DNA of 20,000 nt, taken from the IMG/VR virus record IMGVR_UViG_3300005512_000013; one strand, written 5' to 3'. The number at the start of each line of letters is the position of its first letter. The stretch's first letter is position 1. The stretch comes from an uncultured virus (IMG/VR IMGVR_UViG_3300005512_000013). Its lineage: Duplodnaviria > Heunggongvirae > Uroviricota > Caudoviricetes. The notes under the pieces were generated by a model. It saw nothing but the letters and a program-made list of their open reading frames with translations, was not told where the DNA came from and made no database searches. The translations under genes were made by a program, and so were the position numbers. Shown here piece after piece: positions 3,096 to 18,640 of this stretch.

Positions 3096-3096
3096 T

Positions 3097-3153
3097 TCAC
3101 TGTGCGGCCGCTCGTGCAGCCTCGATCCGTTCGATTGCTTCTTCGAGTGTCAT
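3097..3153 (-). CDS. Possible 18-aa peptide (MTLEEAIERIEAARAAAQ)
   Basis: GAAGGGAA RBS after the upstream TGA; fills the gap before the hairpin exactly. Confidence 0.45.
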   Translation of the reverse strand: MTLEEAIERIEAARAAAQ

Positions 3154-3165
3154 CGGGTGTTCCCT

Positions 3166-3408
3166 TCAGGAGAGTGTGCTGAGCAGTTCGACGTCGTTGT
3201 AGCCCGGTTCGCTGCAGACGTCGAGGTGCTGCAGGTTGCCGCTCATGTCCCGTGCGAGGACGGTCCACTGGGCCCCGTCGATTGCTTCATTGCAGGTGAG
3301 CACGGTCACGAGACGGCCAGCCTCGTGCGTGTCGAGCACGTGCTGGACGTGGGCGGTGTCGGCGAGGTCCGGGTTCGTGTTGGGTTCGAATTCGTTTGCG
3401 AGGTTCAT
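3166..3408 (-). CDS. Early hypothetical protein, 80 aa (start MNLANEF)
   Basis: Start moved to ATG 3408 (AAGGA RBS after repeat copy 4). Confidence 0.8.
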   Translation of the reverse strand: MNLANEFEPNTNPDLADTAHVQHVLDTHEAGRLVTVLTCNEAIDGAQWTVLARDMSGNLQHLDVCSEPGYNDVELLSTLS

Positions 3409-3430
3409 GGGTGATTCCTTTGGATTGAGT

Positions 3431-3493
3431 CGTGATAGTGATTGTGAACTGTCCCCCACTTTGGGGGCAGCCCTGCGGCCGCCCCCTCCGTGG
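3431..3493 (-). repeat. Intergenic repeat copy 4 (3431-3457) plus upstream hairpin (3456-3493)
   Basis: CCAC-GGA-GGGGGCGGCC-GCAG-GGCTGCCCCC-AAA-GTGG running into GGGACAGTTCACAATCACTATCACG. Confidence 0.9.
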
Positions 3494-3498
3494 TCCCC

Positions 3499-3765
3499 TC
3501 AGGCGCGCACCTGTTCGGTGCCGCCCTTGGGGTAGAACGTGACCTCGAAGCGCCGGCCGATCTTCGCTGCGTGCTGCCGCGCGAAGGTTTCGGCTTCCTC
3601 TCGGGTCATGTTCTCTCGGGCCATCCAGTTGACGGCTCCGGTTTCGAGGTTCCGGATGCCGAACATGACGGTCGCCTCGAGGACCTCTTCCGCCGGTGCC
3701 GCCTTCATGGCAGCGAGTTCGGCTTCGAGTTCGTTGACGCGGTCCTGCAGTTCTGCCTTAAGCAT
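3499..3765 (-). CDS. First early gene, 88-aa hypothetical with N-terminal coiled coil
   Basis: GAAAGGAACACC-ATG; LKAELQDRVNELEAELAAM heptad pattern. Confidence 0.85.
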   Translation of the reverse strand: MLKAELQDRVNELEAELAAMKAAPAEEVLEATVMFGIRNLETGAVNWMARENMTREEAETFARQHAAKIGRRFEVTFYPKGGTEQVRA

Positions 3766-3813
3766 GGTGTTCCTTTCGGTTGAAGTGTTGAAGCGGAGGG
3801 TTCCTGCCCCCCA

Positions 3814-3931
3814 GCCGCCAATGCAGTTAGCCGAGCTTGCGAGGCTTGCCGCCTTGCCGCCTTGGCTATCGAGTGCAGCTCTGCTATCGTGCAGCTGCTG
3901 CCGCCAATGCAGCCCGCCGAGCTTGCGAGGC
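3814..3931. repeat. 32-bp direct repeat pair in the early leader
   Basis: gccgccaatgcag-NNN-gccgagcttgcgaggc at 3814-3845 and 3900-3931 (29/32 identical). Confidence 0.9.
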
Positions 3932-4062
3932 CGGTGGCTGAGTGGGCTGCCTCGGCCATCGACTCATTGAGCGAAAGAAGCAGGTAACCACACGTCTACA
4001 CCTTAGCCACCAGCAGTACATTAGACGAGAGGCAGCCCGCGAAGGCAGCGATGCAGCGGCGA

Positions 4063-4088
4063 TGTTGGTGGCAAAGGGGCGAAGCCCC
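4063..4088 (-). promoter_or_regulatory. Putative N4-type virion-RNAP hairpin promoter (proximal)
   Basis: Template (+) strand TGTTGGTGGC-AAA-GGGGC-GAA-GCCCC; 5-bp stem with a GC-GAA-GC minihairpin core. Confidence 0.7.
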
Positions 4089-4130
4089 GCTTGGGTGTGT
4101 GCGACCGACGAGTCCGCGAGGAGGGAGCTG

Positions 4131-4156
4131 TGTTGGTGGCCGAGAGGCGAAGCCTC
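4131..4156 (-). promoter_or_regulatory. Putative N4-type virion-RNAP hairpin promoter (distal)
   Basis: Template (+) strand TGTTGGTGGC-CGA-GAGGC-GAA-GCCTC; same geometry with a compensatory stem change. Confidence 0.7.
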
Positions 4157-4159
4157 GAG

Positions 4160-4580
4160 GTTCTTGAAGAGGGGGGTTATGGGGGGAAACTAAAAAGATT
4201 AAAAGAGAAGATAGCCGCCTGTGTATTCCCAGGGGGTAAGTCGATTTCCCCGATCCCGAGTCGAAGGCGCAGCAGCTCCACTGATGTAGCAACTACCACT
4301 GGTAAGCCACTGATAGACTGCTATGAGCTCTGGGTTGGTAGCTAAGGGGATACTGAGACGGAAGCTAAGCAGTCTAGGTAGCTCCTTAGACACCAACTAT
4401 ATTATGTATTACTAATATACTTCTTAGTATATACTACTAAGCCATACAACCTTTACGGCATCAAAAACCCACTCTACACTCTTCCCATCCAGCGCCTGCC
4501 AACGTGGCAGTGACACGCAGACGGAAGCTAAGAGGCTTAGGGTGTTATCGTATAAATATTATAATAAGTCCCCCTAAGTC
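4160..4580. other. Non-coding late/early junction, probable genome-terminus or origin region
   Basis: No credible ORF; G6-TTAT-G6 run, AT-rich tract with a 12-bp palindrome, CTAAG-type short repeats. Confidence 0.45.
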
Positions 4581-4620
4581 GGGGCGGCCCAGCCGGCATT
4601 GCTGCCAACCAGACCGCCCC
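4581..4620 (-). terminator. 18-bp GNRA-capped hairpin after the giant gene (terminator or processing site)
   Basis: GGGGCGGTCTGGTTGGCA-GCAA-TGCCGGCTGGGCCGCCCC, 13 nt after the stop; 5 G.U pairs fix it to the - strand RNA; no immediate U-tract. Confidence 0.55.
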
Positions 4621-4633
4621 CACAAGGAGAGTA

Positions 4634-7600
4634 TCACTTTCCTAACTTGTCCGCCAGGGAGCCACCTGCGGATCCCGGTCCCATCGCGTTCCCCTTAGGA
4701 GTCGCAATGGTACCTGAGAGGCCGGAGGATCCTCCCTGAGGCGTTCCAGCCCCGCTTACTCCCGGAGATGAGTCTCCAGTCGTCTGCGGAGTTTTGGGCG
4801 ATTCAAAGCCCGCTACGTAGTCAGCCTTCAATTTGGCATAGTCCCTAGCTCGGCCCTTGAGACGAGTCTGCTTAGGAGCCGGCCCCCGGTATTCGGGGAC
4901 TGCATTGAAGTTCCCCAGGATCTGGAGATTCTTCGGACGATGCGATTGAGGCGTACCACTGGCGTCCTTGAAGTCACCAGTCGCTCCTCGGAGCCCCGCC
5001 ACCAGAAGGGGACGGAATTCCGCGGGACCGTACTTGTACAAGAACTCCTTAGCCTGACTCGCAGCCTCAGCGGGGTTGCCCTCAAGGAGAGCGCTGCCGC
5101 CCTGCTTCACCAGATCGGTGAACGCAGTGATGCTCTGGATCATCATAGACGGTCCAGGCATGCCGGGGGTGTTCATACCGAAGGAGCGCTCCTGGGCCTT
5201 AGAGCCAAAGACCGCGCCTCCGCTGAGCTTCCCGACAGAGGAAGTCAGACTATTCATAATCATATCAGTTAGGAACGACCCGGCCCCAAAGACAGGCATA
5301 CGAGCAAGAGCGGTGGTCATCTGCCCAGGGGCATCAGTCCGCCAGTCCTCCGCGATCGCCTCCGGGGAGTCGCCGTTCTTCATCCTGTTCAGCGAGTACC
5401 ACATGACCTCACCGAAGTAGAGAGGCATGAGCATAGCCGCGGTGGCACCGAGGCCGGTAGCCGCCAGGCCAGCCATGACTTCTCGCATGAACAGAATAGA
5501 ATATTGTGATAGCTGCTGCCACATACGGACAACGGGGCTCGTGTTCAAGTTGGTCGTACCAACTCGGGGCTCCATGTTCGTCTTGGCAACTTGGTTGAAG
5601 AGAAGCTGCTGGAGGCCAGTAGCCGCCTTGCCGGACTTGAGAGACTCCTTGCCTCTTCCGAGGCCAGGCTCCCAAGCGACAGCATCAAACATCTCTTCAT
5701 ACTTCAGGAACGTGTTATCAGGCATATAGTCTTCAGCCAGCTCAGACACCCGCCGAGCCATCTCCGGAGAGAGTAGACCCAGGCCGTGCATCTGAGTAGC
5801 CACGTCAGCCTTCACACCGTTCTCCTTCGCAAGGCGTCGAATCAGCTTGGCGTCAATAGTGCCCTCAGGGTTGGAGGCAATCCAATCGTTGAGAGCGTCA
5901 GCCAGCTTCATGGCCTTAGAGTTTCCGTCGGCGTCCGTGACCAGCATCTTCCGGAGAAGCTGCTGAGCAGGGATCATGGCCGCCTCACGCTGAGCGAGCT
6001 GCACTCGTTCAAACGCGAAGGAGCCCAAACGACGGATCTTCTTGTTAGCCTTGTCGTGGAAGCTTTCCTTGAGCGAGGGGTCCAGGGCCATTGCAGCCGA
6101 GGCCTCGTCGCCCATGTTCCAGATGTGACCGAAGCCAAGCTTCGTCATATGGTAGGGCATGGTGATACCGATGGCGTGCATCGAATCCCGCATGGCCCCC
6201 ATGTCACCGGCGTACTTTGGAAGAGTCATCTTCGTTCCGTCGGTGAACATCTTAGCTGCACGATTGACCAAGCCAGCCGTGCCTTCCACAATGAGGGACG
6301 CAGTCGTCCAGTTAGGCGTGGTCGCAAGACCGACCGCCGTCTGAATCGTAGGAGCAACAGCTTCGAGGAAGTCATTGCCCGACTCATCCTTATACGAAGG
6401 GTTACGGCCCTGGGCAAGCCTGTACTGAGACTCGAGGTTCTCAATCTCCTTGATCGCAGCGCGCTGCTGAGAATCGGAGAGCTTGACCATGGTACCGTCC
6501 TGCGAGACACGCGCCCGATGGACGCGAGCCTTAAGAGCATTCAGGAGATCGCCATAACCGAAGCCGGTAATGCCGTAGTACTCCTGATTAAAGAACTTGT
6601 CCGTGACTCCATGATCGAAGGCCATAAAGGTCTTCAATACATTAATAGGAGTACGGTTCAGACCCCGACCAGCAACACCGTCGTTCAAGATACGTCGGAA
6701 GTCACCGCCGCTCATGAAGCGGTTGTTAGCGAAGGAGTAACCACCGTGACGACTGCGATACAACATCTTCATTGCTTCGTAGTCGGCCGGCGAGGATACT
6801 TCCCTACCCGAGGCAAGTACCGCACGGAACTTAGCTCGGTCCTCCGGATCGGGGAAGTCCCGATCAAGGTGGCGCATATAGAAGGGGACATTCTTACTGT
6901 CCGTGAACACAGCGGGGTCAACGCGCCCCTGCATGGCCTGCTTGTAGACATCCCGCAACTGAGTGGGCATATCCTTAGCGTGCCACTGACCGGCCTCCAT
7001 TTTCTCTTGGAGAACCTGAGACGCCAGCCAGAACTCGTCAGAACGATCACCGCCATCAAAGCCGATGTCGTACTTGCTTTCATCAATGTTCAGCTTGCCT
7101 TCGTCAATAATAATATCAACGAGATCCGAACCATAGACGGAGTCCAGGGTATCGACATGGCGAGCCCGATCGGTGGGAGACATTGCTGACTTCCACGGAG
7201 CGAAGATGCCATAGTCGTGCATGAATTGTGCATTCACGAACCCCTGTCGTTCCTCGGGAACGGAGGGATCATATTCAAGTCGTCGAATCTGCTCTTGGCG
7301 GATGCCGTCACCAACCTTGATGGACATCTCGCGCATAGCAGAATCTTCCTTGATGATCTGGCTAAGCTGAATAGGCAGCTGGCGATTCCCGTCACCGACG
7401 AGACTATCGACCACCCACTTATCCATCTCACCAGTTTGATGCGCGTTCTTATACGCACGGTCGTACAGCTTAGCGAATTCACGCGAAGCAGTCTCGACCA
7501 GGTTGGCGGCATGCGGGTTCACACGCCCCAACTCATCCAGAGCCTCGGTATTATCCGGATGGCCGATGAAGGTTTCTTCAAACGCATCATCAACCATACG

Positions 7601-10600
7601 AACGAACTCAGGGTCCTGGATCTTCTGAGCCATCTCAAAGAGTTCAATGGACGCCGACATCGGCTTGCCATACAGCGCTCGCTGAAGCGTCTGGATCTCC
7701 TGCTGCGACATGCCCATACTAAAAGCCTGAGCAGCGGAACGCTCCTCGAAGCCAAGAGTATTGTTGAGCATCTGAGCCGCCCAGTTGATCTCATCCGTCA
7801 TCGAACGCCACGCCGAAGAGGTGCCCTGCAAAGCAATGCCCTCACCGACAAACATAGCCGCACGTCGGAACTTAGAGTCACCCACGGTCTCGCGACGACC
7901 AGCGATCTTCCCGTCAATCATATGATCAACGATAAGCTTCTTCTCGTCCTCAGTGAAACCGTCTAGGCGAACTCGACCGAACTCTTCGTGAGTAGCCGGG
8001 TCACCATCTGCAATCTTACGGGCAATCTTTGCACGCTCTTCGATCGTGAGACCGGAGTCGCGCATAGCATACCTCGTCTTCTTGCGGGTGCCCTCACCAA
8101 GCAGCGTCCTTTGGACACCAGCGATGGATCGCTCAGAAGGAGTCGCGTGCCCAAGCTCCGCCAAGCGGTTCTTGAGAGACTCAATCTTATTGCGGATCAT
8201 CGGTAGATCTTCTTCAGACGCTGTTCGTGATTCGTCCATCGCCTCAGTCAACGCCTTGCGAAGGGCGTCCTCTGTGTTGATGTTCGAAGAGTGATTAAAC
8301 CACATTTCGTTAAATGCCTTACGACCCGACCACAGCACAGGCTCCGCAGTGTTAGCAATGCGGCCCAGGCGCTCAAGGACCGTAGCGGGCTTAAGCCTGT
8401 CGGCTCTAATGCCCTTAGCCTCGATCTTAGGGGTCTCGTAGATCTTTGCGATCTTACGAATACGATCACCGTAACCGGCGCGATACAAAGCAGTAAACTC
8501 TTCACCGAAGTTCTTAGTCACCTCAGTATCGATCGTACGTGAAAGCAAATACCAGGACATCATCTGAGCTGCGAACTCCTGCGACGCAACACCCTGACGG
8601 TGAGAGTCACCGCTCTTGAGGTCGTCGTAGAACTTCTTAAACAACTCATTGCCCTTCTTGTCTCCATGGATAGCAACAAACGCGTCATTGAAAGTCTTCA
8701 AGTCCTCGGGCGTACCCTGAAGGATACGGCGATGGAACTGAGACCTCATCGACGTGAGGGCATGGGACGACGGTCCGCCGCCCTTGGCTCCCTTACCAAG
8801 TGCCATCCCACGGTGGACGATAGCGTGTCCAATTTCATGAACAACAATATCAAACACCTCCATGGCCTCCATGCCTCTCATATCCTTAAGGATAGAGACG
8901 CGATGAAGCATCTGCTGCGAGCTGTCAATCATAGACCGCATCTTAGCAGTACCAGCTTCGCCGGTGAACTGGAACTTGATCCCAGGGAGGAGATCCCCCA
9001 GGAGGTCCATGTTCATAGCCATCATCAAACCGAATTCGCGAGCAGCGTCTTCATCCTTAAAGACACCCGCCTTCTTAAACTCATCAATCAGAGTGTTCAA
9101 AGCCGGGTAACGCTTTTCACGAATTACCTTATCAAACTCATTAGCAAGAGTTCGGCCATTGCTAAAGATAGGCCCAGAGTTATCCGGGACACCCTCAGCA
9201 ATTAGCTTACCCTCCTGCTCAGTTTCCATATCATCGAGAACTCGACCAGCCGACGCATCGGTAATCAGATCGCGCTCAGGCATGTTAGCCATAACGGCTT
9301 CCAGCTTAGCTCGGTTAACACCTCGCGTGTTATAGTCCAGCTCGTCTCCCATGATAGCAGCAATGTCCTCTCGGAACGTGCCTTCTACTTCAGAGTTGAG
9401 ACGAGATTCGATAATATTAAAGTTATCATAAAACTTCTTGCCCATGCCTTCCGTAAAGTCCGATCGACGCAGGAAAGACACGGGAGGAACAGAGCCCTTT
9501 ATTCCCTCGGCCATGTTTCTCTTGGCTCGGGAAGAATACTTAGCAATAGAGGCCATCTTCATCTCGTCCTTACCAGAGAGATGATATGCCCACGCCGCGT
9601 GAGCAGCGTCTGCGTTCCAGCGAACCTCTCCGTCCTCATCTGCGGATTTCAGGTGAGACATGTCGAAGACGCCGGAGTTCTCGTAAATACCCAAGATTTG
9701 ACTACCCCGGATATAAGCAAGGGCATCAAGCCCAGACGAACCGGAGATAGAATCATCAAAAGACATCCACCGGTTAGCGCCGTCCGTGACTTCGCCAATT
9801 CCCTTACGGGCGGCGTCGATACGATCCTGGCTAACCTTACCTTCGCGGTCAGGGTGGAGATGTGAGAAGGCTCTAGACCTATACTCACGAGCGCCCATCT
9901 GATCCACGAGGTTGAGCTTCTCCATCTTCATTTCAAGCATCGACGCAAACCACAGACGACGAATCATCGGCTGAGACTTGGGGTCAATACCAGAAGCACG
10001 GAGCTGGCCCATAGTACGCCAGAGAAGAGTCTTCATTGGAACGCGGCTCAGAGTAAGATCGCGGCCAAGGGAATCGATGTAAGCCGCAGGCCTACGCTTT
10101 CCGTCCTCAACCTGGAGAACCTTAAGGTCCCCCTCAGTAATCATATCTTGCAGCAATTCCTGAGTAAGTTCTTCTGGCTTCGAGATACCAAAGAGCTTAC
10201 GGGCCAGGCCCATAGCTTCGGGATCCTTCATCAGGGTTTCACGAACAGACCCAAGACCCATCAACGTAGTAATGTTAGCAGGCATAAAGGACTCATCGAC
10301 AAACCCTTCCTGCCACTCCTTCAGCCTGGCTTCGTAGTACGATCCGTCCGCATCGTCCTCAAGACGCCTAGCGGCGTACTCGTTAAACTTAAACGCAGCT
10401 TCTTCAGCGTCCACCCCGAACTTGGTCATAATAAACCAATGCCCGAAACGGACAGACTCTTCAGCCGCGCCCATGCCAATACCAAAGTCATTGGAGAAAA
10501 CAGACTTCGCCATAATGCCGGTGATCAACGCGCCGGACGTAATGTTACTACCCTCAAGAACAATACCTTCTCGAGGAGCAGGCCCGAGCAGCGCATCAGC

Positions 10601-13600
10601 GTGCATCCAGTTCCCAGTGGGGTCGTTCACGTACAGCTCTCTAAGAGCCTGCAAGAACGAACCAGCGGGATAGGCGGTTCCAGTATCAGGAATAATCTGC
10701 ACGTCTCGCGTGCCAGCTTCCTTCTTAGCAGCAATCTCAGTCTCGCCCATGAGCTCTTCCAGATAAGACTGGATGTCTCGTTGGACGGTATCCATAAAGC
10801 CCTTCTGGCCTTCTATAGTCTTAAGGTCAAAGCCTTCACCGTTTTCGGTGGACTTCAACTTAGACGTACCTGAGGTCATGCCTTGCTTCACGGCTCTCTC
10901 TACGTGCATCAATCGGAAGACTCGCCCAAAGGAGTCCATGTCCGTGATCGGGATGCCAATAGAGTTGCTGTAATCATTGACTTCGCGCCACGTCCAGTTG
11001 CGAAGCCATTCCTTATCATTCTCGATTCTCATACCGTCGTTACCGCGAGGGGCAACGGGCTGAGGATTCTCGATCATGAATGTACTCAATTTATTTGCGA
11101 TCTTCAGGGGAGACGGCACAGCCATCTCGCCAAGAGTAATCGCAGGGCCAGATACTTCGCCCTTCATGGCGGCCTTAATCTTATCGCGCATCACGATATC
11201 AGACGTGCGGCGAAGACGGAAGGCCTGGAGCTGAGGAATGCCGGCATCAGTCATGATACCTTCATCGCCCTGCCCAAACAGAGTCTGAGTCCGAGTAGAG
11301 GGGACTTGACTACGGATATCATCCCAGAGGATGTCCGAAAGCTCCTCAGGCATCTCACCGTTCTGTTGTCGGTAATCAGCTCGCCATTCCTGGCGGATCT
11401 CTTCCATCTTCTCTCGGATACCCGTAGCTCGGCTCTCATTAGCAGCCCAGTCACGGTAGAAGCCTTCAACAGTCGGCTCCACGTAATCCTTGATCGGAGG
11501 GTTCTGAACCCCCAGGAAGTCGATCATCATATCCTGAACAACAAGCTGAGCAGCCACCAGATTGCGGTCCTCGGCAGACATCTCATTCCAGCCCCTTGCA
11601 TGCTCAGCATCGAGCTCCCAGATAGGAGCTGCGTGCTCGTCAGACACGGCTCGGTACACCGGCCGGATAGACCGGTCGGAGTCGTTAGGATTAACCCAAC
11701 CCTTGCCTCCCTGCCCTGCCCCGGTCCAACCACGTCCAGCGGACGAGTGAATCGAAGAGTGCAGACGTAGTCCGGCTTCGTGAGCAAGCTTCATCTTTGG
11801 ATCTAGATCGTCAGCAGTAAGACCAACACTCTTAAGAGCACTGTCGGCCTCTGCGTTTCGCATCCTATATCCAACACTATTCATTGCACGGATGGTGAGC
11901 TCATCTCGCCGCGTCAGCCAGTTCTCGAGGAAATCTCGGAGGGCCAGCTCAGGCGTATCAGACTCTGCCATAACTTCGCGCATCTTAACTGCAATATTTT
12001 CTTCAGCCACCTTGATCTGGTCCACAGTAGCCGCACCACTCTTAATGAGCATGAGGTTCTTCATGTGCCAGCGCCCAACAGTAGCGAGGAATTCATCGCC
12101 ATAATCGTTGGACCAACCACGACGCTTCGCAACGGCGACAGCTTTTTCCTTTACCTGCCGCTGGAAGTTCTCGTAGTTCTCTCGGTTAGCCTTTTCGTTT
12201 CGCTCTTCCCGAGCTGCTTTATCCTGAGGGGATTCGTCGCCCTCCGGCGCAGGCTCCCTCTCCCATGCCGTATCTTCCATACTGCGCTGAGCGTAGAGAT
12301 CATCATACGTAATGTTACGCATTTCGACTTCGCCCCTCTGAACCACAGTAGAGTCGCTACCGGCGTCACGCCCTCTGTGCTCAATCTGAAGATCAAGATC
12401 AGGGTTAAACGCATCCGCGTGGAGGGAGTTAAGGTTACGAATAGAATCACGGAAAGTCTTGGCGTCGGGCGTCTTAAGAATCTTGCCCATCATACCGCCT
12501 TCGCCCTTCCACTTCTTACCGGCCTTATCTGCAAAGGCCCAACCAAGGACGCTCGCAGTCTGGTAGAGAATAGAGTTAGGCTGTCGGTTACCCGACTTCG
12601 CGTCAGCTTCGAGCTTCTTCGCCAGATCGGGGAAAGCTTCCTCGACCATGCCTCGGAATTCAGCAGCTGCTGGAGTGTCAATACTAAAAGCTTCCTCAAG
12701 GAAGTCAGCAATGGCTCCAGACATAGCATCGCCACCGGCGCCGTAAGATCGGGTCATAACAGGACGCTTCATGAGCTTGTCCCGAAGGAACTTCTTCATG
12801 CGGCCCTGAGCAGCAGTACCTGGATCATCAGCCTTAGCCTCTTCTCCAATTTCCTGCTTACTACCAAACTTACCAATAGAATCAAACAAGTGATTCCACA
12901 TATCTGCGCCGTCAGCAAATACTTCCTCATTTCCAAAGCGTCCGCTACCAAAAGCGGTCTCGCTAAAGCCCGTACCCTCAGACCCTTCTATTCTACCCTG
13001 GAGCCGGCCTTGGCTCTTAGCAAAGCGAGGCTCAGCCGGGATATCGATCATCCCATCCCAGACAGTGGAGTAGAAGTCGGCAGCTACAACTGCCAGGCCC
13101 TCTTCGTCAAGCTTAGCGCTGACGTTCTGAGCCAGAGCTTCGGCCTTGAGCATCTCCATTCGAATGTCCCCGTTGAGGAAACCATCCTTAGGATCCCAGC
13201 CCATAGCCGTCTTAACTTCGTCGATACCACGAGCAATGTCGTAGTCCGAATCAATAATATTTTTAACATTAGCATCAGACTTACCGTAAGCCGCCTGCTG
13301 ACGAGCAGCAAAGACAGCGGCGTTGAACAAGCCCTTAGCCAGAGACACAGCCTGTGAAGCCGCGTCCCACGAGTTGAGGATCTCATCGAACTGCTTAGTA
13401 GAAAGCGTACCGCCTTCAAACTTAGCCTTTCGGATTTCTTCATCAACCTTGCGAACAGCGGTATCCAGCTCAATCAGGGTCAGCATCTCTGCTGCCTCAC
13501 GGAGCTCTGCTTCGCCCTTGCTGCCGCCCTTCTCGGCCAGCGCCAAAAGCTTTCGCTTCTCGCCGACCTTCAGGCTCTTCTTAATGCCGGCAGCATCAGC

Positions 13601-16600
13601 TGCCTTCTTCAGGGCTTCGCCCTTAAGGTTGGCAATGTGCTCAGGGATTTCAATCTCTTCCCCTTCGGCTGCCTTACCCCGAAGATCATTAGCAACAATA
13701 GCATCCCGCATGTCCTTCAAACTCTCAAGACCAATGGCACGAGCAAAAGCGTCCATGCCGTCAAACTGCCGGAAGATCATACCGGAGCGGATGTTAAGCC
13801 AGTCGGTAATACCGCCGGGCACCGTAGCCAGAGTCTGCCAGCCAGCGCCCAGGCCGTCCAGCGATCCTGCGCCCTGTGAGTTACGCATAACCATGGGACC
13901 AATGGCACCCATGTTATTGAGAGCAACGCCCTCCTGCATAATCAACGTAAGGTCATCGTGGATCCCCTGATGGAGATGCACTGGCTCCTGAAGCATTCGA
14001 GAGTAGTAATCATCCATTTTTTGCTTAATGTCGCCACTCCAATCACGAACAGGAGACCCGAGAGCCTTTGCGTCACGAGACACCAAGTGCAGCCCACGGT
14101 CCTTCTGCTCGAAGGGGTGCTTAGGAACATTAGCCTGGATCTCTTCCGCAGAAGCGTTCTTAAGGTTAGTGTAGAACTCAATAATATCGTTGAGCTCTTC
14201 ATGAGAGAATTCCCGAGGGGTCCCGTCCGGGTTGAACAGGATCTGCCTCTCGCCCTCTCTAAGCATGAACTCTTCAATAAACTTGACCTGCTTCTGAACC
14301 TTCAGGTTACCCGTGGGGTTCTGAGTTCGGTCAGCACTGAATCGAACGTGAGCATAGGTCTCGCCACGAGTGCCGACCTTAGTGTCTGCCTTAATCTCAG
14401 CGGCCGTGTCTCCAGTCAGGGACGCACCGTCTCGGTACATCCCGATCAAAGCCAGGCCAGCCTGATTACCACGAACGAAAGACTGGGAGCCATTAACAAG
14501 ATCCATGGGGCTATCAAACCCGAGATCCTTAGCAGCCAGCTTTGCAATCATAGGAGCGACAGTGCTCTTCCATTCTTCAGTAGGGGAGCTACCTCGCTGA
14601 GGCACGGGGATACCATGCCGCTTGAAGATAGCGTTTCTGTTCTCGACGGAGATACCGTGGTTACCGAAGAGCGCATTTCGAGCGCCCAGATACAGGGCGT
14701 CCTCTTCCGTTCTAAGGTAAGCCGCCCAGCCTTCTTCCCCGAGCTCCTGTCGCTTAGCGGCAGCAGCTTCCTGGGACACAGCTCGGTACGGAGCAAGCAT
14801 CTCTTGTTCGAGATAATCAATTTCATTAACAGTCTTAATCTTGCTGTTGTACTGCGCCAGCCGGATACGATCCTCGAGATCGGCTTCGCCATTCTTGACC
14901 TTGCCTTCGAGGCGCGCCATCTCGGCACGAGCAGCAGCAGAACGAGCAGTGTTGAAGTCAGCGTCGACACGAGCAAGGCGTTCTTCCGCAATGCGGCGAA
15001 CCTCAGCAAGGTCGTACTTATTGGTGCCCACGCCGGAAGTTCCCCGAGCAGGACCAAAGACTGCATCACGGAGGTTGACACCTGCGTCTGACTCAGGCCC
15101 AAAGAGGGGCCGAGCAATCGCGAGCATCTCTACTTCGCCAATGAACCTATCATGTCCACCAGCTCGTAGTTCCTCCATGTGCTTATTAACTTCATTCAAC
15201 ACATTCATAAAGTAGAGACGCTGCCCCTCGCGGTCAACCCCGAGGATCAGCATCTGATCAATATTCAGCTTACCGGCCGAAAGTTGATCGTCTACCTGCT
15301 GGATAAACCTGTGATACCCCACGAGGGCGGTAAGCTCTTCGATGTCCAGTCCCTTTACGGCGTCAGCGTTCTCTGCGGGATAGCCGAACTTCGAGTGAAG
15401 CTCCTGCCGGAGAGTCAGCTTCTTCTGGTTCTTATGCACCTTAGCAACCTCTCCCTCGACGTCCTTAATCATGTCCCCAAGCGATCGCTCGGTAGAGATG
15501 TTAGCGACATCGAAGGTCTCATGCAGAGTCTTCAGGTTTTCAATAGCCTTATCAAAATAGGCCGTGCCTTCAAGGAAGGCCTTATTATCACGGAACTGGT
15601 AATCGCGGAGACTACCACCTCCGACAAGAAGCTTAAGCTCCTGAGCCGTGCGGTAAGCCGCAGCGGGCCCAGCAGCCTTATGTTCTTCAATCTGCTTAGC
15701 AATAGCCTCATAGCTGCCTCGAGTAAACCGGCTCGCCAAGAAGACGGCGTTCGGATCCTCAGTAAGGCCCTTGAAGTTATTACCCTGTCCGTGACGACGA
15801 GCCGTGCGGATAGCGTTGTGCGCTCCGCCCAGATCAATCATATCGGAATCACCATTATCGAAAGACCGAGCAAACTCCGGATCAAGTTCCACCAGCGCGT
15901 GGCGGAGAACTTCGACCGGCATTTCCTCAAAGCCTTCCTTCTCAAAGCCGTCAACGACGTCATGTGCTCGGGACTCGACCGCACCGAGCATTCGGTGGGA
16001 TACGACCTGAGCAGCAATAGCGTCGACTTCGACTTCGTCAACATCTAGTCTCTGTGCAATAGCCTTACGGACAGCGGCCTGGGCCTCTTCCGCAGTATGC
16101 ACCTTCTGAGAAGCTTCGGCCTGGGCCTTCTTAGCCACCTTCTTAACCGGAGGAGGCTCAGGCACAGTAACCCGCTCGAATTCGACAGGAGCATTCTTGG
16201 CTTCTTCAACCTTCTGCGCAGCCTCATCGACCTTCTTTTGAGCGGCTGCCTTAGCCTCAGCCTCAGCGCCAGCACGCTCACGACGCAGGGCATCGATATC
16301 AGCCTCAGCATCCTCGCGAGCATCAGAACCCTTCTTGTAGTCAGGAGTATCCTCAAATCGTGAGGGGCCCTCAGGCTCTCCCTCAGCGGCTTCAGTCTCA
16401 GCCTTAGCCTTCGCTTCAGCCTCAGCCTCGGCTTCTTCGGCTTCGATCCTAGCCTTCTCAGCCTTAGCTTCCGCGAGAGCCTTTTCCTGCTCTTCGAGTT
16501 GCTTCTGCTTGGCGGCTTGGGCCTCTGCTTCGCGCTTTGCGTTTTCCTTCTCAGCGGCCTCTTCGGCCTCTTTCTTTTCCTTGAGACGCTGATCTTCGGC

Positions 16601-18640
16601 CTTCTTAGCTTCGGCCTTAGATGCCGCCCGGTCTGCAGCCGCTTGGCGCGCCTCAGCCCGAGCATCGTCAACAGCCTTGTTGGCTGCAATCAGATCGTCA
16701 ATCACAGGGTCAGCGGCTTCGGCCGTTTCCTGTGAAGCCTTACCGAGACCTTCCGCCGACTTATCCTCAACCTTGTGCTCTTGAACAATAGCACCGGTCT
16801 GGATATCATCGCGGGCAACCTCGTCTTCAGCCTTAGCTCGATCCGTCTCAGTCTTGCCCTTAGCAATCTGCCTCTCCAGCTCCTGACGACGCAGGTGCCG
16901 AGCCGCGACTGCATCGGGCTTTACAAATTCATCTTTAATAATATCATGCGCAGCTTCTCGAATGATAGCTGCCTTTTCTTCTGGCGTGCCTTCAAGGTCG
17001 TCCAGATCCACCTCATCACGCATACGGGCTGCCACCTTATGAGGGGCAACTCCCGCGCGCCCAGCATCTCTCTCGATGCCGGCAGACGTAGAGGTCACAA
17101 TAGCTTCGTCTTCGATCCCGCTCTTGGCGAGGATCTTCCGGGTAATCCCAGCAGTCACAGCAGATGATGCTGCTTCCTTGTTAGACTTGCCTCGGACACC
17201 TTCAAGGTTGCCGGCCAAGCCCTTAAGGCTTTTGTCGGCCATTGCCGTCAGGCCCTTGAAGCCTACACGAAGAGCGGAGCCCAGGGTAACCGCACCCGCC
17301 ACGCCCATGAGGCCGCGAAGAGCGACCTGATCGAAGCTGCGGATTGAGGCCATCTGGCCCTTGCCGTAGACCACGCTGTTGAGATCATCGATGTTCTGGG
17401 TATTCATAAGGAAGGCACCCACGCCACCGGCAACGCCGTCAGCAGAAGCACCAGCCAAGAAGGTCACCCAGTTATCGTACTCGTCCATATTGTTCCAGGC
17501 GTATCGGAGCCGAGACGCAGTGGTCTTCAGTTCCTTGCCCTTACGAGCGGCCTTGAAGGCCTTGACTCCGGGGACAACAAAGTCACCCAGGACGCGGGTC
17601 GGCAGAAGGCGGCCGGCGGTAGCCAGTCCCTTAGCTGCCTTGTGAGTTGCGAGAGCGCGGTTCGTGAGAGAGCCCGCCTTAGCGGCGCCGCTCACGTACA
17701 CACTCGCGCCACCGGAGGGGATCGCCAGCAGAAGCGCCATGCCGACCTCACCGATGGTATCAGGATCATTAATAATAGTAGGAAGCATCTGCCCGAAGTT
17801 CTCAAGCATACCGCCCCAGTCATCCGCCGAGGCGTGCTGCTGGAACTTGGCTTCCTTATAGAGACGGTTCATCCCGTAGATGAGCGCGTCTTGGTTTGTG
17901 AATCGGGACATGGTATCCCGCTTCATCCCAGCGGCCTGAATAAGGTAGCGACCAGCCTCCGAGGAGTTCATCGCTTCCCAGGCATTATCCTGAGCTTCGG
18001 CAGTCCAGGTGGGATCAACCCGCTTGGTAACCATATCCGAAATATCATCATACGTAAAGAGCGACTGGAACGGGCTGCTGAGGGTGTCGCCCCAGCTGCC
18101 TTCCTTGCTCGTATCCACGCCCCGAGCCTCAGCAGCAGCGAGGAACTCGGGAGAGTTCGTTAGGCCGAGGATCTTAGCGACGTCGGAGTTCTGCCCCGCG
18201 TCGTGCATAAACTGGTTCCGGGCACGGAGATCCGTACCGAGGAAACCCCAGTGCTCGTCAGACGTCATAGAGCGCGCTTGCTCCCAGGCTCCTTCGTGGA
18301 TCGACTCGACCCAGAAGTCATTGTTGGAAGCGTGACGCTCCGCTTCGGTAGCAACGTCAAGGCGGATCTTTTCCCAGGCCTCGATGTCTTCGCTAGCCCC
18401 GGAGGACATAGCCTTACCGAAGGCCTCCATCCGCTCATTGAATTGACGGAGGGCGCCAGTGCCGGTAGTAAGTCCGATTTGAGTCATCTCATCGGTATAG
18501 CGGGCACCAGTAATAATACTATTATGCTGACTAGCTGCATGGGCCTTGAGCTGAGCGTCAAGGTCCAGCTTTGCCTTCTCCTCGTCTACCGGCGCAATGC
18601 CGTTAGTGACGGGGTTCGGGACAGGGTTAAATTGAGACAT
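4634..18640 (-). CDS. Giant (4668 aa) virion/ejection protein with a single-subunit (T7/N4-type) RNA polymerase domain and a zincin-like motif
   Basis: 14-kb ORF with AAAGGAAAG RBS; motif B-like RDKLMKRPVMTRSYGAG (aa ~1953-1969); motif A-like WDAASQA (D~1759); ADFYSTV (D~1855); HEIGH (aa ~3268-3272); no Cys seen. Confidence 0.8.
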   Translation of the reverse strand: MSQFNPVPNPVTNGIAPVDEEKAKLDLDAQLKAHAASQHNSIITGARYTDEMTQIGLTTGTGALRQFNERMEAFGKAMSSGASEDIEAWEKIRLDVATEAERHASNNDFWVESIHEGAWEQARSMTSDEHWGFLGTDLRARNQFMHDAGQNSDVAKILGLTNSPEFLAAAEARGVDTSKEGSWGDTLSSPFQSLFTYDDISDMVTKRVDPTWTAEAQDNAWEAMNSSEAGRYLIQAAGMKRDTMSRFTNQDALIYGMNRLYKEAKFQQHASADDWGGMLENFGQMLPTIINDPDTIGEVGMALLLAIPSGGASVYVSGAAKAGSLTNRALATHKAAKGLATAGRLLPTRVLGDFVVPGVKAFKAARKGKELKTTASRLRYAWNNMDEYDNWVTFLAGASADGVAGGVGAFLMNTQNIDDLNSVVYGKGQMASIRSFDQVALRGLMGVAGAVTLGSALRVGFKGLTAMADKSLKGLAGNLEGVRGKSNKEAASSAVTAGITRKILAKSGIEDEAIVTSTSAGIERDAGRAGVAPHKVAARMRDEVDLDDLEGTPEEKAAIIREAAHDIIKDEFVKPDAVAARHLRRQELERQIAKGKTETDRAKAEDEVARDDIQTGAIVQEHKVEDKSAEGLGKASQETAEAADPVIDDLIAANKAVDDARAEARQAAADRAASKAEAKKAEDQRLKEKKEAEEAAEKENAKREAEAQAAKQKQLEEQEKALAEAKAEKARIEAEEAEAEAEAKAKAETEAAEGEPEGPSRFEDTPDYKKGSDAREDAEADIDALRRERAGAEAEAKAAAQKKVDEAAQKVEEAKNAPVEFERVTVPEPPPVKKVAKKAQAEASQKVHTAEEAQAAVRKAIAQRLDVDEVEVDAIAAQVVSHRMLGAVESRAHDVVDGFEKEGFEEMPVEVLRHALVELDPEFARSFDNGDSDMIDLGGAHNAIRTARRHGQGNNFKGLTEDPNAVFLASRFTRGSYEAIAKQIEEHKAAGPAAAYRTAQELKLLVGGGSLRDYQFRDNKAFLEGTAYFDKAIENLKTLHETFDVANISTERSLGDMIKDVEGEVAKVHKNQKKLTLRQELHSKFGYPAENADAVKGLDIEELTALVGYHRFIQQVDDQLSAGKLNIDQMLILGVDREGQRLYFMNVLNEVNKHMEELRAGGHDRFIGEVEMLAIARPLFGPESDAGVNLRDAVFGPARGTSGVGTNKYDLAEVRRIAEERLARVDADFNTARSAAARAEMARLEGKVKNGEADLEDRIRLAQYNSKIKTVNEIDYLEQEMLAPYRAVSQEAAAAKRQELGEEGWAAYLRTEEDALYLGARNALFGNHGISVENRNAIFKRHGIPVPQRGSSPTEEWKSTVAPMIAKLAAKDLGFDSPMDLVNGSQSFVRGNQAGLALIGMYRDGASLTGDTAAEIKADTKVGTRGETYAHVRFSADRTQNPTGNLKVQKQVKFIEEFMLREGERQILFNPDGTPREFSHEELNDIIEFYTNLKNASAEEIQANVPKHPFEQKDRGLHLVSRDAKALGSPVRDWSGDIKQKMDDYYSRMLQEPVHLHQGIHDDLTLIMQEGVALNNMGAIGPMVMRNSQGAGSLDGLGAGWQTLATVPGGITDWLNIRSGMIFRQFDGMDAFARAIGLESLKDMRDAIVANDLRGKAAEGEEIEIPEHIANLKGEALKKAADAAGIKKSLKVGEKRKLLALAEKGGSKGEAELREAAEMLTLIELDTAVRKVDEEIRKAKFEGGTLSTKQFDEILNSWDAASQAVSLAKGLFNAAVFAARQQAAYGKSDANVKNIIDSDYDIARGIDEVKTAMGWDPKDGFLNGDIRMEMLKAEALAQNVSAKLDEEGLAVVAADFYSTVWDGMIDIPAEPRFAKSQGRLQGRIEGSEGTGFSETAFGSGRFGNEEVFADGADMWNHLFDSIGKFGSKQEIGEEAKADDPGTAAQGRMKKFLRDKLMKRPVMTRSYGAGGDAMSGAIADFLEEAFSIDTPAAAEFRGMVEEAFPDLAKKLEADAKSGNRQPNSILYQTASVLGWAFADKAGKKWKGEGGMMGKILKTPDAKTFRDSIRNLNSLHADAFNPDLDLQIEHRGRDAGSDSTVVQRGEVEMRNITYDDLYAQRSMEDTAWEREPAPEGDESPQDKAAREERNEKANRENYENFQRQVKEKAVAVAKRRGWSNDYGDEFLATVGRWHMKNLMLIKSGAATVDQIKVAEENIAVKMREVMAESDTPELALRDFLENWLTRRDELTIRAMNSVGYRMRNAEADSALKSVGLTADDLDPKMKLAHEAGLRLHSSIHSSAGRGWTGAGQGGKGWVNPNDSDRSIRPVYRAVSDEHAAPIWELDAEHARGWNEMSAEDRNLVAAQLVVQDMMIDFLGVQNPPIKDYVEPTVEGFYRDWAANESRATGIREKMEEIRQEWRADYRQQNGEMPEELSDILWDDIRSQVPSTRTQTLFGQGDEGIMTDAGIPQLQAFRLRRTSDIVMRDKIKAAMKGEVSGPAITLGEMAVPSPLKIANKLSTFMIENPQPVAPRGNDGMRIENDKEWLRNWTWREVNDYSNSIGIPITDMDSFGRVFRLMHVERAVKQGMTSGTSKLKSTENGEGFDLKTIEGQKGFMDTVQRDIQSYLEELMGETEIAAKKEAGTRDVQIIPDTGTAYPAGSFLQALRELYVNDPTGNWMHADALLGPAPREGIVLEGSNITSGALITGIMAKSVFSNDFGIGMGAAEESVRFGHWFIMTKFGVDAEEAAFKFNEYAARRLEDDADGSYYEARLKEWQEGFVDESFMPANITTLMGLGSVRETLMKDPEAMGLARKLFGISKPEELTQELLQDMITEGDLKVLQVEDGKRRPAAYIDSLGRDLTLSRVPMKTLLWRTMGQLRASGIDPKSQPMIRRLWFASMLEMKMEKLNLVDQMGAREYRSRAFSHLHPDREGKVSQDRIDAARKGIGEVTDGANRWMSFDDSISGSSGLDALAYIRGSQILGIYENSGVFDMSHLKSADEDGEVRWNADAAHAAWAYHLSGKDEMKMASIAKYSSRAKRNMAEGIKGSVPPVSFLRRSDFTEGMGKKFYDNFNIIESRLNSEVEGTFREDIAAIMGDELDYNTRGVNRAKLEAVMANMPERDLITDASAGRVLDDMETEQEGKLIAEGVPDNSGPIFSNGRTLANEFDKVIREKRYPALNTLIDEFKKAGVFKDEDAAREFGLMMAMNMDLLGDLLPGIKFQFTGEAGTAKMRSMIDSSQQMLHRVSILKDMRGMEAMEVFDIVVHEIGHAIVHRGMALGKGAKGGGPSSHALTSMRSQFHRRILQGTPEDLKTFNDAFVAIHGDKKGNELFKKFYDDLKSGDSHRQGVASQEFAAQMMSWYLLSRTIDTEVTKNFGEEFTALYRAGYGDRIRKIAKIYETPKIEAKGIRADRLKPATVLERLGRIANTAEPVLWSGRKAFNEMWFNHSSNINTEDALRKALTEAMDESRTASEEDLPMIRNKIESLKNRLAELGHATPSERSIAGVQRTLLGEGTRKKTRYAMRDSGLTIEERAKIARKIADGDPATHEEFGRVRLDGFTEDEKKLIVDHMIDGKIAGRRETVGDSKFRRAAMFVGEGIALQGTSSAWRSMTDEINWAAQMLNNTLGFEERSAAQAFSMGMSQQEIQTLQRALYGKPMSASIELFEMAQKIQDPEFVRMVDDAFEETFIGHPDNTEALDELGRVNPHAANLVETASREFAKLYDRAYKNAHQTGEMDKWVVDSLVGDGNRQLPIQLSQIIKEDSAMREMSIKVGDGIRQEQIRRLEYDPSVPEERQGFVNAQFMHDYGIFAPWKSAMSPTDRARHVDTLDSVYGSDLVDIIIDEGKLNIDESKYDIGFDGGDRSDEFWLASQVLQEKMEAGQWHAKDMPTQLRDVYKQAMQGRVDPAVFTDSKNVPFYMRHLDRDFPDPEDRAKFRAVLASGREVSSPADYEAMKMLYRSRHGGYSFANNRFMSGGDFRRILNDGVAGRGLNRTPINVLKTFMAFDHGVTDKFFNQEYYGITGFGYGDLLNALKARVHRARVSQDGTMVKLSDSQQRAAIKEIENLESQYRLAQGRNPSYKDESGNDFLEAVAPTIQTAVGLATTPNWTTASLIVEGTAGLVNRAAKMFTDGTKMTLPKYAGDMGAMRDSMHAIGITMPYHMTKLGFGHIWNMGDEASAAMALDPSLKESFHDKANKKIRRLGSFAFERVQLAQREAAMIPAQQLLRKMLVTDADGNSKAMKLADALNDWIASNPEGTIDAKLIRRLAKENGVKADVATQMHGLGLLSPEMARRVSELAEDYMPDNTFLKYEEMFDAVAWEPGLGRGKESLKSGKAATGLQQLLFNQVAKTNMEPRVGTTNLNTSPVVRMWQQLSQYSILFMREVMAGLAATGLGATAAMLMPLYFGEVMWYSLNRMKNGDSPEAIAEDWRTDAPGQMTTALARMPVFGAGSFLTDMIMNSLTSSVGKLSGGAVFGSKAQERSFGMNTPGMPGPSMMIQSITAFTDLVKQGGSALLEGNPAEAASQAKEFLYKYGPAEFRPLLVAGLRGATGDFKDASGTPQSHRPKNLQILGNFNAVPEYRGPAPKQTRLKGRARDYAKLKADYVAGFESPKTPQTTGDSSPGVSGAGTPQGGSSGLSGTIATPKGNAMGPGSAGGSLADKLGK

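What the first reader, a model, noticed from the sequence alone, without database searches (positions are those of the whole stretch)
4063..4156. Tandem N4-type hairpin promoters with covarying stems and a conserved initially transcribed sequence
Seen: two elements 68 bp apart, TGTTGGTGGC-AAA-GGGGC-GAA-GCCCC and TGTTGGTGGC-CGA-GAGGC-GAA-GCCTC. The stem changes G:C to A:T while keeping pairing, and loop, spacer length and the 10-nt flank are identical. They are on the template strand for the early genes. Known: N4 vRNAP promoters are 5-7 bp template hairpins with a C-GAA-G or C-GGA-G triloop a few nt from +1. Inference: transcripts start near 4072 and 4140 as 5'-GCCACCAACA, with a 3-nt spacer rather than the 4 nt of N4.
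Basis: partly seen in the sequence, partly recalled or inferred. Interest (0 to 1): 0.85.

Follow-up and report, generated by a model that had tools for sequence, protein, structure and literature searches.

The report
Tandem mini-hairpin boxes before early genes
Two near-identical small DNA hairpin signals sit in front of the early genes of an uncultured T7-like phage that also carries a giant cysteine-free protein, and they look like the start signals used by the injected RNA polymerase of phage N4, although this phage is not an N4 relative and the link is not proven.

Summary
TGTTGGTGGC, a 3-nt spacer and a 5-bp/GAA-loop hairpin occur twice, 68 nt apart, on the + strand (4063-4088, 4131-4156), which is the template for the small ORFs downstream. 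The two copies differ in the stem by one compensatory pair. They are the only such pair in 65.7 kb.

The genome is T7-like: an intact 834-aa single-subunit RNAP and T7-type portal and tail-tube genes. The 4668-aa ORF matches no N4 vRNAP Pfam or PHROG family.

That ORF does share some vRNAP traits:
- It has no cysteine and closes a four-gene cysteine-free operon.
- Its HExxH region aligns to the C1 domain of N4 gp50 (hhalign E 3e-4).
- It has a motif-B-like KRPVMTRSYG.
- It gives weak fold matches to T7 RNAP fingers.

The hairpins carry every N4 determinant (-8G, C:G closing pair, G-A-A loop) except the spacing to a template C, which is 7 nt instead of 8.

No relative's DNA could be obtained for this region, and five distant relatives lack such hairpins.

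Best reading (about 0.45): hairpin promoters for an injected polymerase. Rivals: origin or genome-end element, duplex promoter or binding site, RNA leader element.

The parts
4063..4072 (+). Conserved 10-nt flank, copy 1 (TGTTGGTGGC on the template strand). It would be the first transcribed bases, 5'-GCCACCAACA, if a start lies at 4072.
4076..4088 (+). Hairpin 1: GGGGC-GAA-GCCCC with a GCGAAGC mini-hairpin core; loop centre at 4082.
4131..4140 (+). Conserved 10-nt flank, copy 2.
4144..4156 (+). Hairpin 2: GAGGC-GAA-GCCTC; loop centre at 4150. One compensatory pair relative to hairpin 1.
4634..18640 (-). Giant 4668-aa ORF with no cysteine. Candidate ejected protein and candidate carrier of the polymerase that would read the hairpins.
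12740..12784 (-). Giant protein aa 1953-1967, RDKLMKRPVMTRSYG: motif-B-like stretch.
8525..8848 (-). Giant protein aa 3265-3372, the HEIGH region, which aligns to the HExxH C1 subdomain of N4 gp50.
3499..3765 (-). First convincing ORF downstream of the hairpins (88 aa, ATG start; a GAAAGGA stretch lies just before the ATG). No family match.
4430..4453 (-). Copy of a 22-nt box, AGGTTGTATGGCTTAGTAGTAT. It is found 3 times in 65.7 kb and looks like a promoter. This copy lies about 300 nt upstream of the hairpins on the coding strand.
3432..3455 (-). First of six CACTATCAC boxes confined to the small-ORF region. The others have cores starting at 3031, 2349, 1682, 942 and 108 on the - strand.

Best explanation
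The two elements are tandem early promoters of the N4 kind. When the DNA is underwound, the template (+) strand extrudes a very stable GCGAAGC-centred mini-hairpin. A virion-delivered single-subunit RNA polymerase binds the loop and stem and starts RNA 10-11 nt downstream of the loop centre, at or next to 4072 and 4140. It then transcribes leftwards into the small ORFs. The most likely reader is a polymerase module in the middle of the cysteine-free 4668-aa protein encoded just upstream, which would be ejected with the DNA as N4 gp50 is.

Shown: the anatomy, strand, position and uniqueness of the elements; the cysteine-free operon; the HExxH similarity to gp50.

Inferred: that the giant protein is ejected, that it polymerises RNA, that it reads these hairpins, and where transcripts start.
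For: 1. Both copies carry the N4 determinants: a 5-bp stem, a G-A-A loop, a C:G closing pair and -8G. They lie on the template strand (compared with N4 P1/P2 and passages of PMC4496689).
2. Conservation is confined to flank plus hairpin, and the only stem change is compensatory.
3. They are the only such pair in 65.7 kb. They lie between the giant gene and a cluster of small - strand ORFs.
4. No sigma-70-like promoter was found in 3400-4800: 0 found, 0.6 expected.
5. The giant protein has 0 Cys in 4668 aa, as do all 7 family members and an N4-type vRNAP. The four ORFs after the terminase (133, 215, 1199 and 4668 aa) all have 0 Cys. Of the other 21 ORFs examined, 18 have 0.1-2.6% Cys and 3 (139, 316 and 327 aa) also have none. 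Lack of cysteine is noted for vRNAPs in PMC3715699 (passage).
6. Giant aa 3265-3372 aligns to N4 gp50 2225-2323 with HExxH on HExxH: hhalign E 3.2e-4, probability 39%. That stretch lies in the C1 subdomain described in PMC13434306 (passage).
7. Motif B signals:
   - phrog_414 (T7-like RNAP) at E 0.025 on aa 1940-1983.
   - hhalign against a 54-sequence ssRNAP alignment at E 0.004, the best of 15 windows.
   - The best local match to N4 mini-vRNAP in 3 of 14 windows is its motif B region 664-702.
   - KR..M...YG occurs only twice in the six-frame translation of 65.7 kb: in the phage's own RNAP and in the giant protein.
8. In the 450-aa model (pLDDT 67), aa 1842-2076 align to T7 RNAP 535-792 with Z 4.3, rmsd 4.0 over 129 residues, and to human mtRNAP with Z 4.0.
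9. Tandem early hairpin promoters and variable hairpin-to-start distances are known in LUZ7 (PMC9163698 passages).
Against: 1. The giant protein matches none of the four N4 vRNAP Pfam families and no PHROG at E<=0.001 (the families are seen on N4 gp50).
2. It has no PDB hit by sequence or profile.
3. All polymerase signals are individually non-significant. Foldseek places N4 vRNAP entries at ranks 16-34 and 10-32 with E 0.3-1.4. VIA Z 4.3 is in the range the tool calls common.
4. I could not place catalytic motifs A and C with confidence. My candidate motif A segment is predicted helical in the second model, and the extended hhalign does not align the catalytic Asp residues.
5. The template C is 7 nt, not 8 nt, from -8G. 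This is a tested N4 determinant that is not met.
6. There are only two copies, so covariation is a single event.
7. The first convincing ORF starts about 300 nt downstream.
8. A 22-nt promoter-like box lies upstream on the same strand, and six other promoter-like boxes precede the small ORFs. The early genes therefore do not need the hairpins to be promoters.
9. The phage has its own complete T7-like RNAP.
10. Five of five distant relatives with giant ORFs show no clustered C-GNA-G hairpins.
11. No match to the element was found elsewhere in IMG/VR: 0 of 119 loose matches had the full stem, and there were 0 strict matches.
12. Which genome end enters the cell first is unknown.
Confidence: 0.45

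Rival explanations
1. Replication-origin or genome-end element. The mini-hairpins form on single-stranded DNA and serve as a priming or initiation signal for the phage primase-helicase, or as part of the terminal or packaging region. They would not serve to start mRNA.
For: - GCGAAGC-type mini-hairpins are reported at priming sites of G4-type phages and of ssiA, as well as at N4 promoters (PMC13037366 passages).
- The elements lie in an ~870-nt stretch without a convincing gene. That stretch is full of direct repeats and two AT-rich tracts.
- The GC and AT skews of the + strand flip at about 4000-4500 although genes stay on the - strand.
- The phage encodes a T7-type primase-helicase.
Against: - No terminal repeat or physical end could be placed here. 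Three assemblies break at different places: G001 starts at window 3370, the JGI contig at window 1602, and the window itself runs on.
- The orientation and the full set of N4 loop and stem determinants are not required by this model.
- No priming site is known with this flank.
Confidence: 0.22
2. Duplex-level signal. The 26-nt repeat is a promoter or operator read as double-stranded DNA, by the phage's 834-aa T7-like RNAP or by a DNA-binding regulator. The hairpin would be incidental, or used as in LUZ7 middle promoters.
For: - A 10-nt perfectly conserved flank is more typical of duplex recognition than of N4 promoters.
- The phage has a complete T7-like RNAP.
- LUZ7's T7-like RNAPII appears to use GC-rich hairpin promoters (PMC9163698 passage).
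- An inverted near-copy of the flank lies at 4006-4015.
Against: - A polymerase that transcribes a ~70-kb genome needs promoters elsewhere, and the element occurs nowhere else in 65.7 kb.
- Two other box families fit that role better.
- The compensatory stem change argues for pairing.
Confidence: 0.15
3. RNA-level element. Transcripts from the upstream 22-nt box run through the repeats, and the RNA hairpins (UUC loops) with the GCCACCAACA tail act in processing, stability or antitermination of the early leader.
For: - A promoter-like box lies about 300 nt upstream on the coding strand.
- The repeats would sit in a long untranslated leader.
Against: - RNA folding of the leader is no better than shuffles: z +1.1 for 3990-4072 and -0.2 for 3760-4140.
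- No Rfam family reaches threshold.
- The stems are only 5 bp and are not followed by a U run; 0 terminator-like sites were found.
- The stable G-A-A loop is on the DNA template strand, not in the RNA.
Confidence: 0.1
4. A recent local duplication with no function of its own.
For: There are only two copies, adjacent to each other, in a repeat-rich spacer.
Against: Flanks have diverged to 39% identity while the core keeps 23 of 27 positions, and the stem change is compensatory.
Confidence: 0.05

Closest known systems
Coliphage N4 early promoters P1-P3, read by virion RNA polymerase gp50 (PMC4496689; sequence read from EF056009)
   Same: - Template-strand hairpin with a 5-bp stem and a 3-nt G-A-A loop. 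The GCGAAGC heptamer is identical to that of N4 P1.
- C:G closing pair and G at -8.
- Upstream of small early ORFs.
- More than one copy.
- A giant cysteine-free protein with an HExxH domain is encoded in the genome.
   Different: - The spacer to the template C is 3 nt, not 4.
- The 10-nt downstream flank is identical between copies. N4 P1 and P2, as I read them, share only the first two transcribed bases.
- The copies are 68 nt apart in one spacer rather than before separate genes.
- The phage is T7-like in gene content.
- The giant protein fails every N4 vRNAP family model.
Pseudomonas phage LUZ7 early and middle promoters (ONT-cappable-seq, PMC9163698)
   Same: - Hairpin promoters with a 3-nt loop.
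- Tandem strong early promoters (33 nt apart).
- The distance from hairpin to start differs from N4.
- A T7-like RNAP may also read hairpin promoters.
   Different: - LUZ7 is a schitovirus with a recognisable vRNAP.
- Its starts lie 13-14 nt from the hairpin centre. Here the only template C is 10 nt away.
d(GCGAAGC) mini-hairpin DNA at priming sites of G4-type phages and ssiA (PMC13037366)
   Same: The same heptamer, or its class, forming an unusually stable hairpin on single-stranded DNA at an initiation site.
   Different: Those sites prime DNA synthesis on single-stranded replicons. No primase link is shown here.
T7-group phage RNAP promoters
   Same: The genome layout and an 834-aa RNAP are of the T7 type. 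Other boxes in this window (the CACTATCAC family) resemble T7-group promoters; that consensus is recalled, not taken from a call.
   Different: T7-type promoters are read as duplex DNA and have no hairpin.

Membership tests
N4-type vRNAP hairpin promoter | Hairpin on the template strand, 5-7 bp stem, 3-nt loop | tested here: met
   5-bp stems and 3-nt loops on the + strand. The downstream ORFs are on the - strand.
N4-type vRNAP hairpin promoter | Loop 5'-G-(A/G)-A, C:G loop-closing pair, G at -8 | tested here: met
   compared with N4 P1/P2 and passages of PMC4496689. Both copies read ..GGC-GAA-GCC..
N4-type vRNAP hairpin promoter | Template C at +1, eight nt downstream of -8 | tested here: not met
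   the template C (4072, 4140) is 7 nt from -8G. The N4 position (4071, 4139) holds G.
N4-type vRNAP hairpin promoter | Lies at the first-injected end, upstream of early genes | tested here: inconclusive
   It lies upstream of a small-ORF cluster. The genome ends could not be placed.
N4-type vRNAP hairpin promoter | A cognate virion RNA polymerase is encoded | tested here: inconclusive
   There are no vRNAP Pfam or PHROG hits. Weak signals exist: a motif-B-like stretch, T7 RNAP fingers at Z 4.3, an HExxH C1-like region at E 3e-4, and 0 Cys.
N4-type vRNAP hairpin promoter | Transcripts start there early in infection, independent of host RNAP | not testable with these tools
Schitoviridae (N4-like phages) | gp50-type vRNAP recognisable by its family models | tested here: not met
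   0 Pfam families on the giant ORF. N4 gp50 hits PF21894, PF21769, PF21867 and PF21624.
Schitoviridae (N4-like phages) | Two-subunit RNAPII and N4-type structural genes | tested here: not met
   one 834-aa RNAP (phrog_414, E 6.5e-143) and T7-type portal, tail-tube A/B and primase-helicase PHROGs.
T7-like single-subunit RNA polymerase fold (central part of the giant protein) | Motif B (R..K....YG) in a fingers subdomain | tested here: inconclusive
   phrog_414 E 0.025; hhalign E 0.004; VIA Z 4.3 over 129 residues on T7 RNAP 535-792; pattern control.
T7-like single-subunit RNA polymerase fold (central part of the giant protein) | Catalytic aspartates of motifs A and C | tested here: inconclusive
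   I picked candidates by eye (D1855; D2113/D2114). They are not confirmed.
GCGAAGC mini-hairpin DNA | Heptamer GCGAAGC | tested here: met
   present in both copies (4078-4086 and 4146-4154 hold GGCGAAGCC).

The most novel reading that the evidence does not exclude
A lineage of ~70-kb T7-like podophages combines a complete T7-type RNA polymerase and T7-type virion genes with an N4-style start to infection. A giant cysteine-free ejected protein, too diverged for any vRNAP model, carries a polymerase that reads GCGAAGC mini-hairpin promoters with a one-base shorter ruler. The genome would then use three promoter classes in sequence: hairpins, CACTATCAC boxes and a 22-nt box. That would make injected-polymerase transcription older or more widespread than Schitoviridae, and would link the T7 and N4 strategies in one genome.
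Probability: 0.3. Interest if true: 0.8.

Novelty: new variant of a known kind. Interest (0 to 1): 0.58.

Why it matters
Hairpin promoters read by an injected single-subunit polymerase are so far tied to N4-like phages. If they also work in a phage with T7-type architecture, that would bear on three points:
- The N4 strategy would not be a family peculiarity.
- It would give an experimental handle on an uncharacterised family of giant proteins (seven known members; none carries a source name or a Pfam domain). The family was found only in metagenomes.
- It would offer a natural variant of the promoter 'ruler' (7 nt instead of 8 nt from -8G to the start) for testing how such enzymes pick the start site.

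If the rival holds, the site instead marks the origin or an end of this genome.

Tried and rejected
Comparative data for this region
- blastn of 3500-4700 against 50,697 phage records: no match.
- tblastn of the giant C-terminal 1000 aa against the same records: no match.
- Relatives of the giant C-terminus or of the first ORF in IMG/VR, JGI metagenomes and GTDB genomes returned only the same phage or a 92% relative lacking this region.
- A loose pattern scan gave 119 chance-level single hits, 0 with a full stem.
- A strict pattern and the 22-nt box each gave 0 hits.

Polymerase tests on the giant protein
- No PDB match by phmmer or by profile.
- hhalign of the whole alignment against single N4 gp50 or the phage RNAP gave nothing usable.
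- BLASTP against the phage's own RNAP gave only noise-level segments, E >= 0.39.
- The ESM Atlas gave no usable hit.
- Fold searches on the 1200-aa model were dominated by coiled coils.
- In Foldseek, N4 vRNAP appears only at E 0.3-1.4.
- My first motif A guess (FDGMD, aa 1626-1630) was dropped because the Asp is Glu in 2 of 6 sequences.
- A motif-C-like HDYG at aa 3808 is too far from motif B to belong to one domain. I left it as unexplained.

Distant relatives
- Five of five ~67-kb relatives (RNAP 38-40% identical) have giant ORFs. These show no BLASTP similarity to this one, no profile hit to its C-terminus, and no clustered hairpins.

Other
- RNA structure and Rfam: nothing.
- Earlier notes of this scan: none for this genome. 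A word search listed hairpin-promoter notes in other genomes.

Full report
**Observation**

The + strand reads TGTTGGTGGC-AAA-GGGGC-GAA-GCCCC at 4063-4088 and TGTTGGTGGC-CGA-GAGGC-GAA-GCCTC at 4131-4156, 68 nt apart. The exact 10-mer occurs only at these two places in the window. GGCGAAGCC occurs 4 times against 0.26 expected, and 0 of 200 shuffles reached 4.

Aligning the two 76-nt units gives 42 identical columns. Of these, 23 lie in the 27 core columns and 19 in the 49 outside. Selection therefore appears to act on flank plus hairpin. The only stem difference is a G:C to A:T change on both sides. With two copies that is one event. My own rough estimate is that two random changes among ten stem positions would form a compensatory pair about 4% of the time.

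I joined window 1-3369 to the near-identical virus record G001 (99.98% over window 3370-20000). In that 65,680-nt composite there are ten C-G[A/G]A-G triloop hairpins with stems of 4 bp or more. Only these two are adjacent or share a flank.

**Surroundings**

Nearly all ORFs of the genome lie on the - strand. On that strand the order is: terminase, four ORFs of 133, 215, 1199 and 4668 aa, an ~870-nt stretch without a convincing gene, then small ORFs. The hairpins lie in that stretch.

The stretch also holds:
- a GC-rich inverted repeat just after the giant gene's stop (my reading);
- two AT-rich tracts;
- a 30-nt repeat at 4349-4378 and 4512-4541;
- a 32-nt repeat at 3814-3845 and 3900-3931;
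- a 22-nt box, AGGTTGTATGGCTTAGTAGTAT, at 4453-4430 on the - strand, which recurs at composite positions 51135 and 65057.

Six CACTATCAC boxes, four of them in a 24-27-nt conserved form, each precede a small ORF by 9-23 nt. They occur nowhere in the other ~59 kb. A simple scan found no sigma-70-like promoter and no intrinsic terminator in 3400-4800.

**What kind of phage**

PHROG matches show a T7-type layout:
- an 834-aa single-subunit RNAP (phrog_414, E 6.5e-143);
- primase-helicase, DNA polymerase and exonuclease;
- T7-type portal, major head protein and tail proteins;
- terminase.

The RNAP is 25-29% identical to those of Autographiviridae isolates. The genome is not a schitovirus by gene content.

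The RNAP has many relatives at 38-43% identity on 62-69-kb IMG/VR contigs. I fetched five of these. All five carry an ORF of 3258-4267 aa with 0-2 cysteines, so giant ORFs are a trait of the wider group.

**The giant protein**

It has no Pfam or PHROG family and no PDB match by sequence or profile. Only six relatives are known, all 4618-4900 aa and all unnamed. N4 gp50 hits four vRNAP Pfam families. The giant hits none, even in pieces at E up to 10.

Four things nevertheless point towards an N4-gp50-like ejected protein.

1. Cysteine. There are 0 Cys in all seven family members and in an N4-type vRNAP. All four ORFs of the operon have 0 Cys. Of the 21 other ORFs examined, 18 have 0.1-2.6% and 3 (139, 316 and 327 aa) also have none. 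PMC3715699 notes that vRNAPs lack cysteine and links this to passage through the tail and periplasm (passage).
2. HExxH domain. Aa 3265-3372 (HEIGH) align to gp50 2225-2323 (HELVH) with hhalign E 3.2e-4, probability 39% and 26% identity over 94 columns. This was the one clear hit among 22 window comparisons with the N- and C-terminal parts of gp50. PMC13434306 places a conserved HExxH in the C1 subdomain of the gp50 C-terminal domain, residues 2124-2375 (passage).
3. Motif B. RDKLMKRPVMTRSYG (aa 1953-1967) has 11 of its 15 residues invariant in six sequences.
   - It is the reason for a phrog_414 hit at E 0.025.
   - It gives hhalign E 0.004 against a 54-sequence ssRNAP alignment, the best of 15 windows.
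   - It gives the top local match to N4 mini-vRNAP 664-702, where N4's motif B lies, although the P-value is only about 0.3.
   - The pattern KR..M...YG occurs only twice in the six-frame translation of 65.7 kb: in the phage's own RNAP and in the giant.
4. Fold. In a 450-aa model (mean pLDDT 67), aa 1842-2076 align to T7 RNAP 535-792 (Z 4.3, rmsd 4.0, 129 residues) and to human mitochondrial RNAP (Z 4.0). These are the longest alignments in a list otherwise made of short helical hairpins.

None of these signals is significant alone, and the tool itself warns that Z under 8 is common. Foldseek lists N4 vRNAP entries only at E 0.3-1.4. I could not place catalytic motifs A and C. I put the chance that the protein contains a polymerase-like module at roughly 60%. 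That is a judgement, not a computed value.

**Comparison with N4 promoters**

From EF056009 the N4 template strand reads CCATAA-GTTGC-GAA-GCAAC (P1) and CATCC-AAAA-GAAGC-GGA-GCTTC (P2).

The review PMC4496689 (passages) states four points:
- vRNAP recognises -11A/G, -10G, -8G and +1C;
- the C:G closing pair and the outer loop bases are needed for extrusion;
- a GC-rich heptamer is centred at -11;
- the four A's act as a ruler, so that transcription starts eight nt downstream of -8.

Both copies here have the P1 heptamer GCGAAGC, -8G and the C:G closing pair. The template C, however, is seven nt from -8, and the N4 position holds a G. In LUZ7 the start is 13-14 nt from the hairpin centre, and two strong early promoters lie in tandem 33 nt apart (PMC9163698 passages). 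Both spacing and tandem arrangement therefore vary among known systems.

**Rivals**

- Origin or end element. The review of mini-hairpin DNA reports the same class of hairpin at priming sites of G4-type phages and of ssiA (PMC13037366 passages). The elements lie where the + strand's GC and AT skews flip, among repeats and AT-rich tracts. This fits an origin or an end, but I could not place the ends. Three assemblies break at different points, and G001 ends in an adapter read-through.
- Duplex signal. The 10-nt perfect flank fits a duplex promoter or operator, but the element's absence from the rest of the genome does not.
- RNA role. This finds no support in folding or in Rfam.

**Comparative tests**

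All attempts to obtain the homologous region from relatives failed. The five distant relatives have no clustered C-GNA-G hairpins anywhere. Within 2.5 kb downstream of their giant genes there is no C-G[A/G]A-G triloop with a stem of 5 bp or more. Their giant proteins show no BLASTP similarity to this one at E <= 1e-3, so this neither supports nor refutes the reading.

**Literature**

Three full-text searches listed no paper describing hairpin promoters or a vRNAP in a T7-type phage. I read only listings and the passages cited above. Supplements were not opened. Table S2 of PMC3715699, with the LUZ7 and LIT1 promoter sequences, may bear on the spacing comparison.

**Verdict**

The assumed N4 context is wrong, and the polymerase link is only suggestive. 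I rate the hairpin-promoter reading at about 0.45. If it is true, this is a new variant of a known kind in an unexpected phage lineage.

Noticed in passing
window 3432-3455, 3023-3046, 2341-2364, 100-123 (- strand); cores only at 1674-1682 and 934-942: Six CACTATCAC boxes, four of them in the long form GGGGGACAGTTCAYATTCACTATCAC. Each lies 9-23 nt before the ATG of a small ORF. They are absent from the other ~59 kb of G001. They look like an early-region-only promoter class resembling T7-group promoters; that consensus is recalled, not taken from a call.
   Followed up: partly
window 4430-4453 (- strand); G001 composite positions 51135 and 65057: A 22-nt box, AGGTTGTATGGCTTAGTAGTAT, is perfectly conserved in three copies ahead of gene blocks. 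It is a candidate promoter of the 834-aa T7-like RNAP.
   Followed up: partly
window 4634-20000 (- strand) and L003:15357-19998: Four consecutive ORFs after the terminase (133, 215, 1199 and 4668 aa; 6215 aa in all) contain no cysteine. This may be an ejection-protein operon like N4 gp52-gp51-gp50.
   Followed up: partly
window 7203-7214 (giant protein aa 3808-3811): A motif-C-like stretch, GFVNAQFMHDYGIFAP, resembles the phage RNAP's GVINFSMIHDSYGCPAP, but it lies 1850 aa after the motif-B-like stretch. D, Y, G, A and P are invariant in the family. Unexplained.
   Followed up: partly
window 1-4500: The + strand of the small-ORF region is strongly G>C (skew up to +0.24) and T>A (AT skew down to -0.38). 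Both skews change sign at about 4000-4500 although the genes stay on the - strand.
   Followed up: no
window 3814-3845 / 3900-3931 and 4349-4378 / 4512-4541: Two further direct-repeat pairs lie in the same non-coding stretch (91% and 77% identical). The second pair flanks an AT-rich tract with a palindrome at 4420-4441.
   Followed up: no
L006 (G001 62281-62311): Record G001 ends in an Illumina adapter read-through. This may be an assembly artefact or a hint of a physical DNA end there. A 70,485-nt JGI contig of the same phage runs on past this point.
   Followed up: partly
G002-G006 (L210-L229): A wider group of ~62-69-kb phages shares this RNAP type. All five that I fetched have a giant ORF of 3258-4267 aa with 0-2 cysteines, and three of the five contain an HExxH. 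These giants are not alignable to this one by BLASTP.
   Followed up: partly
window 4006-4015: An inverted near-copy (1 mismatch) of the 10-nt flank lies 47 nt downstream of copy 1. RNA folding did not pair the two.
   Followed up: partly
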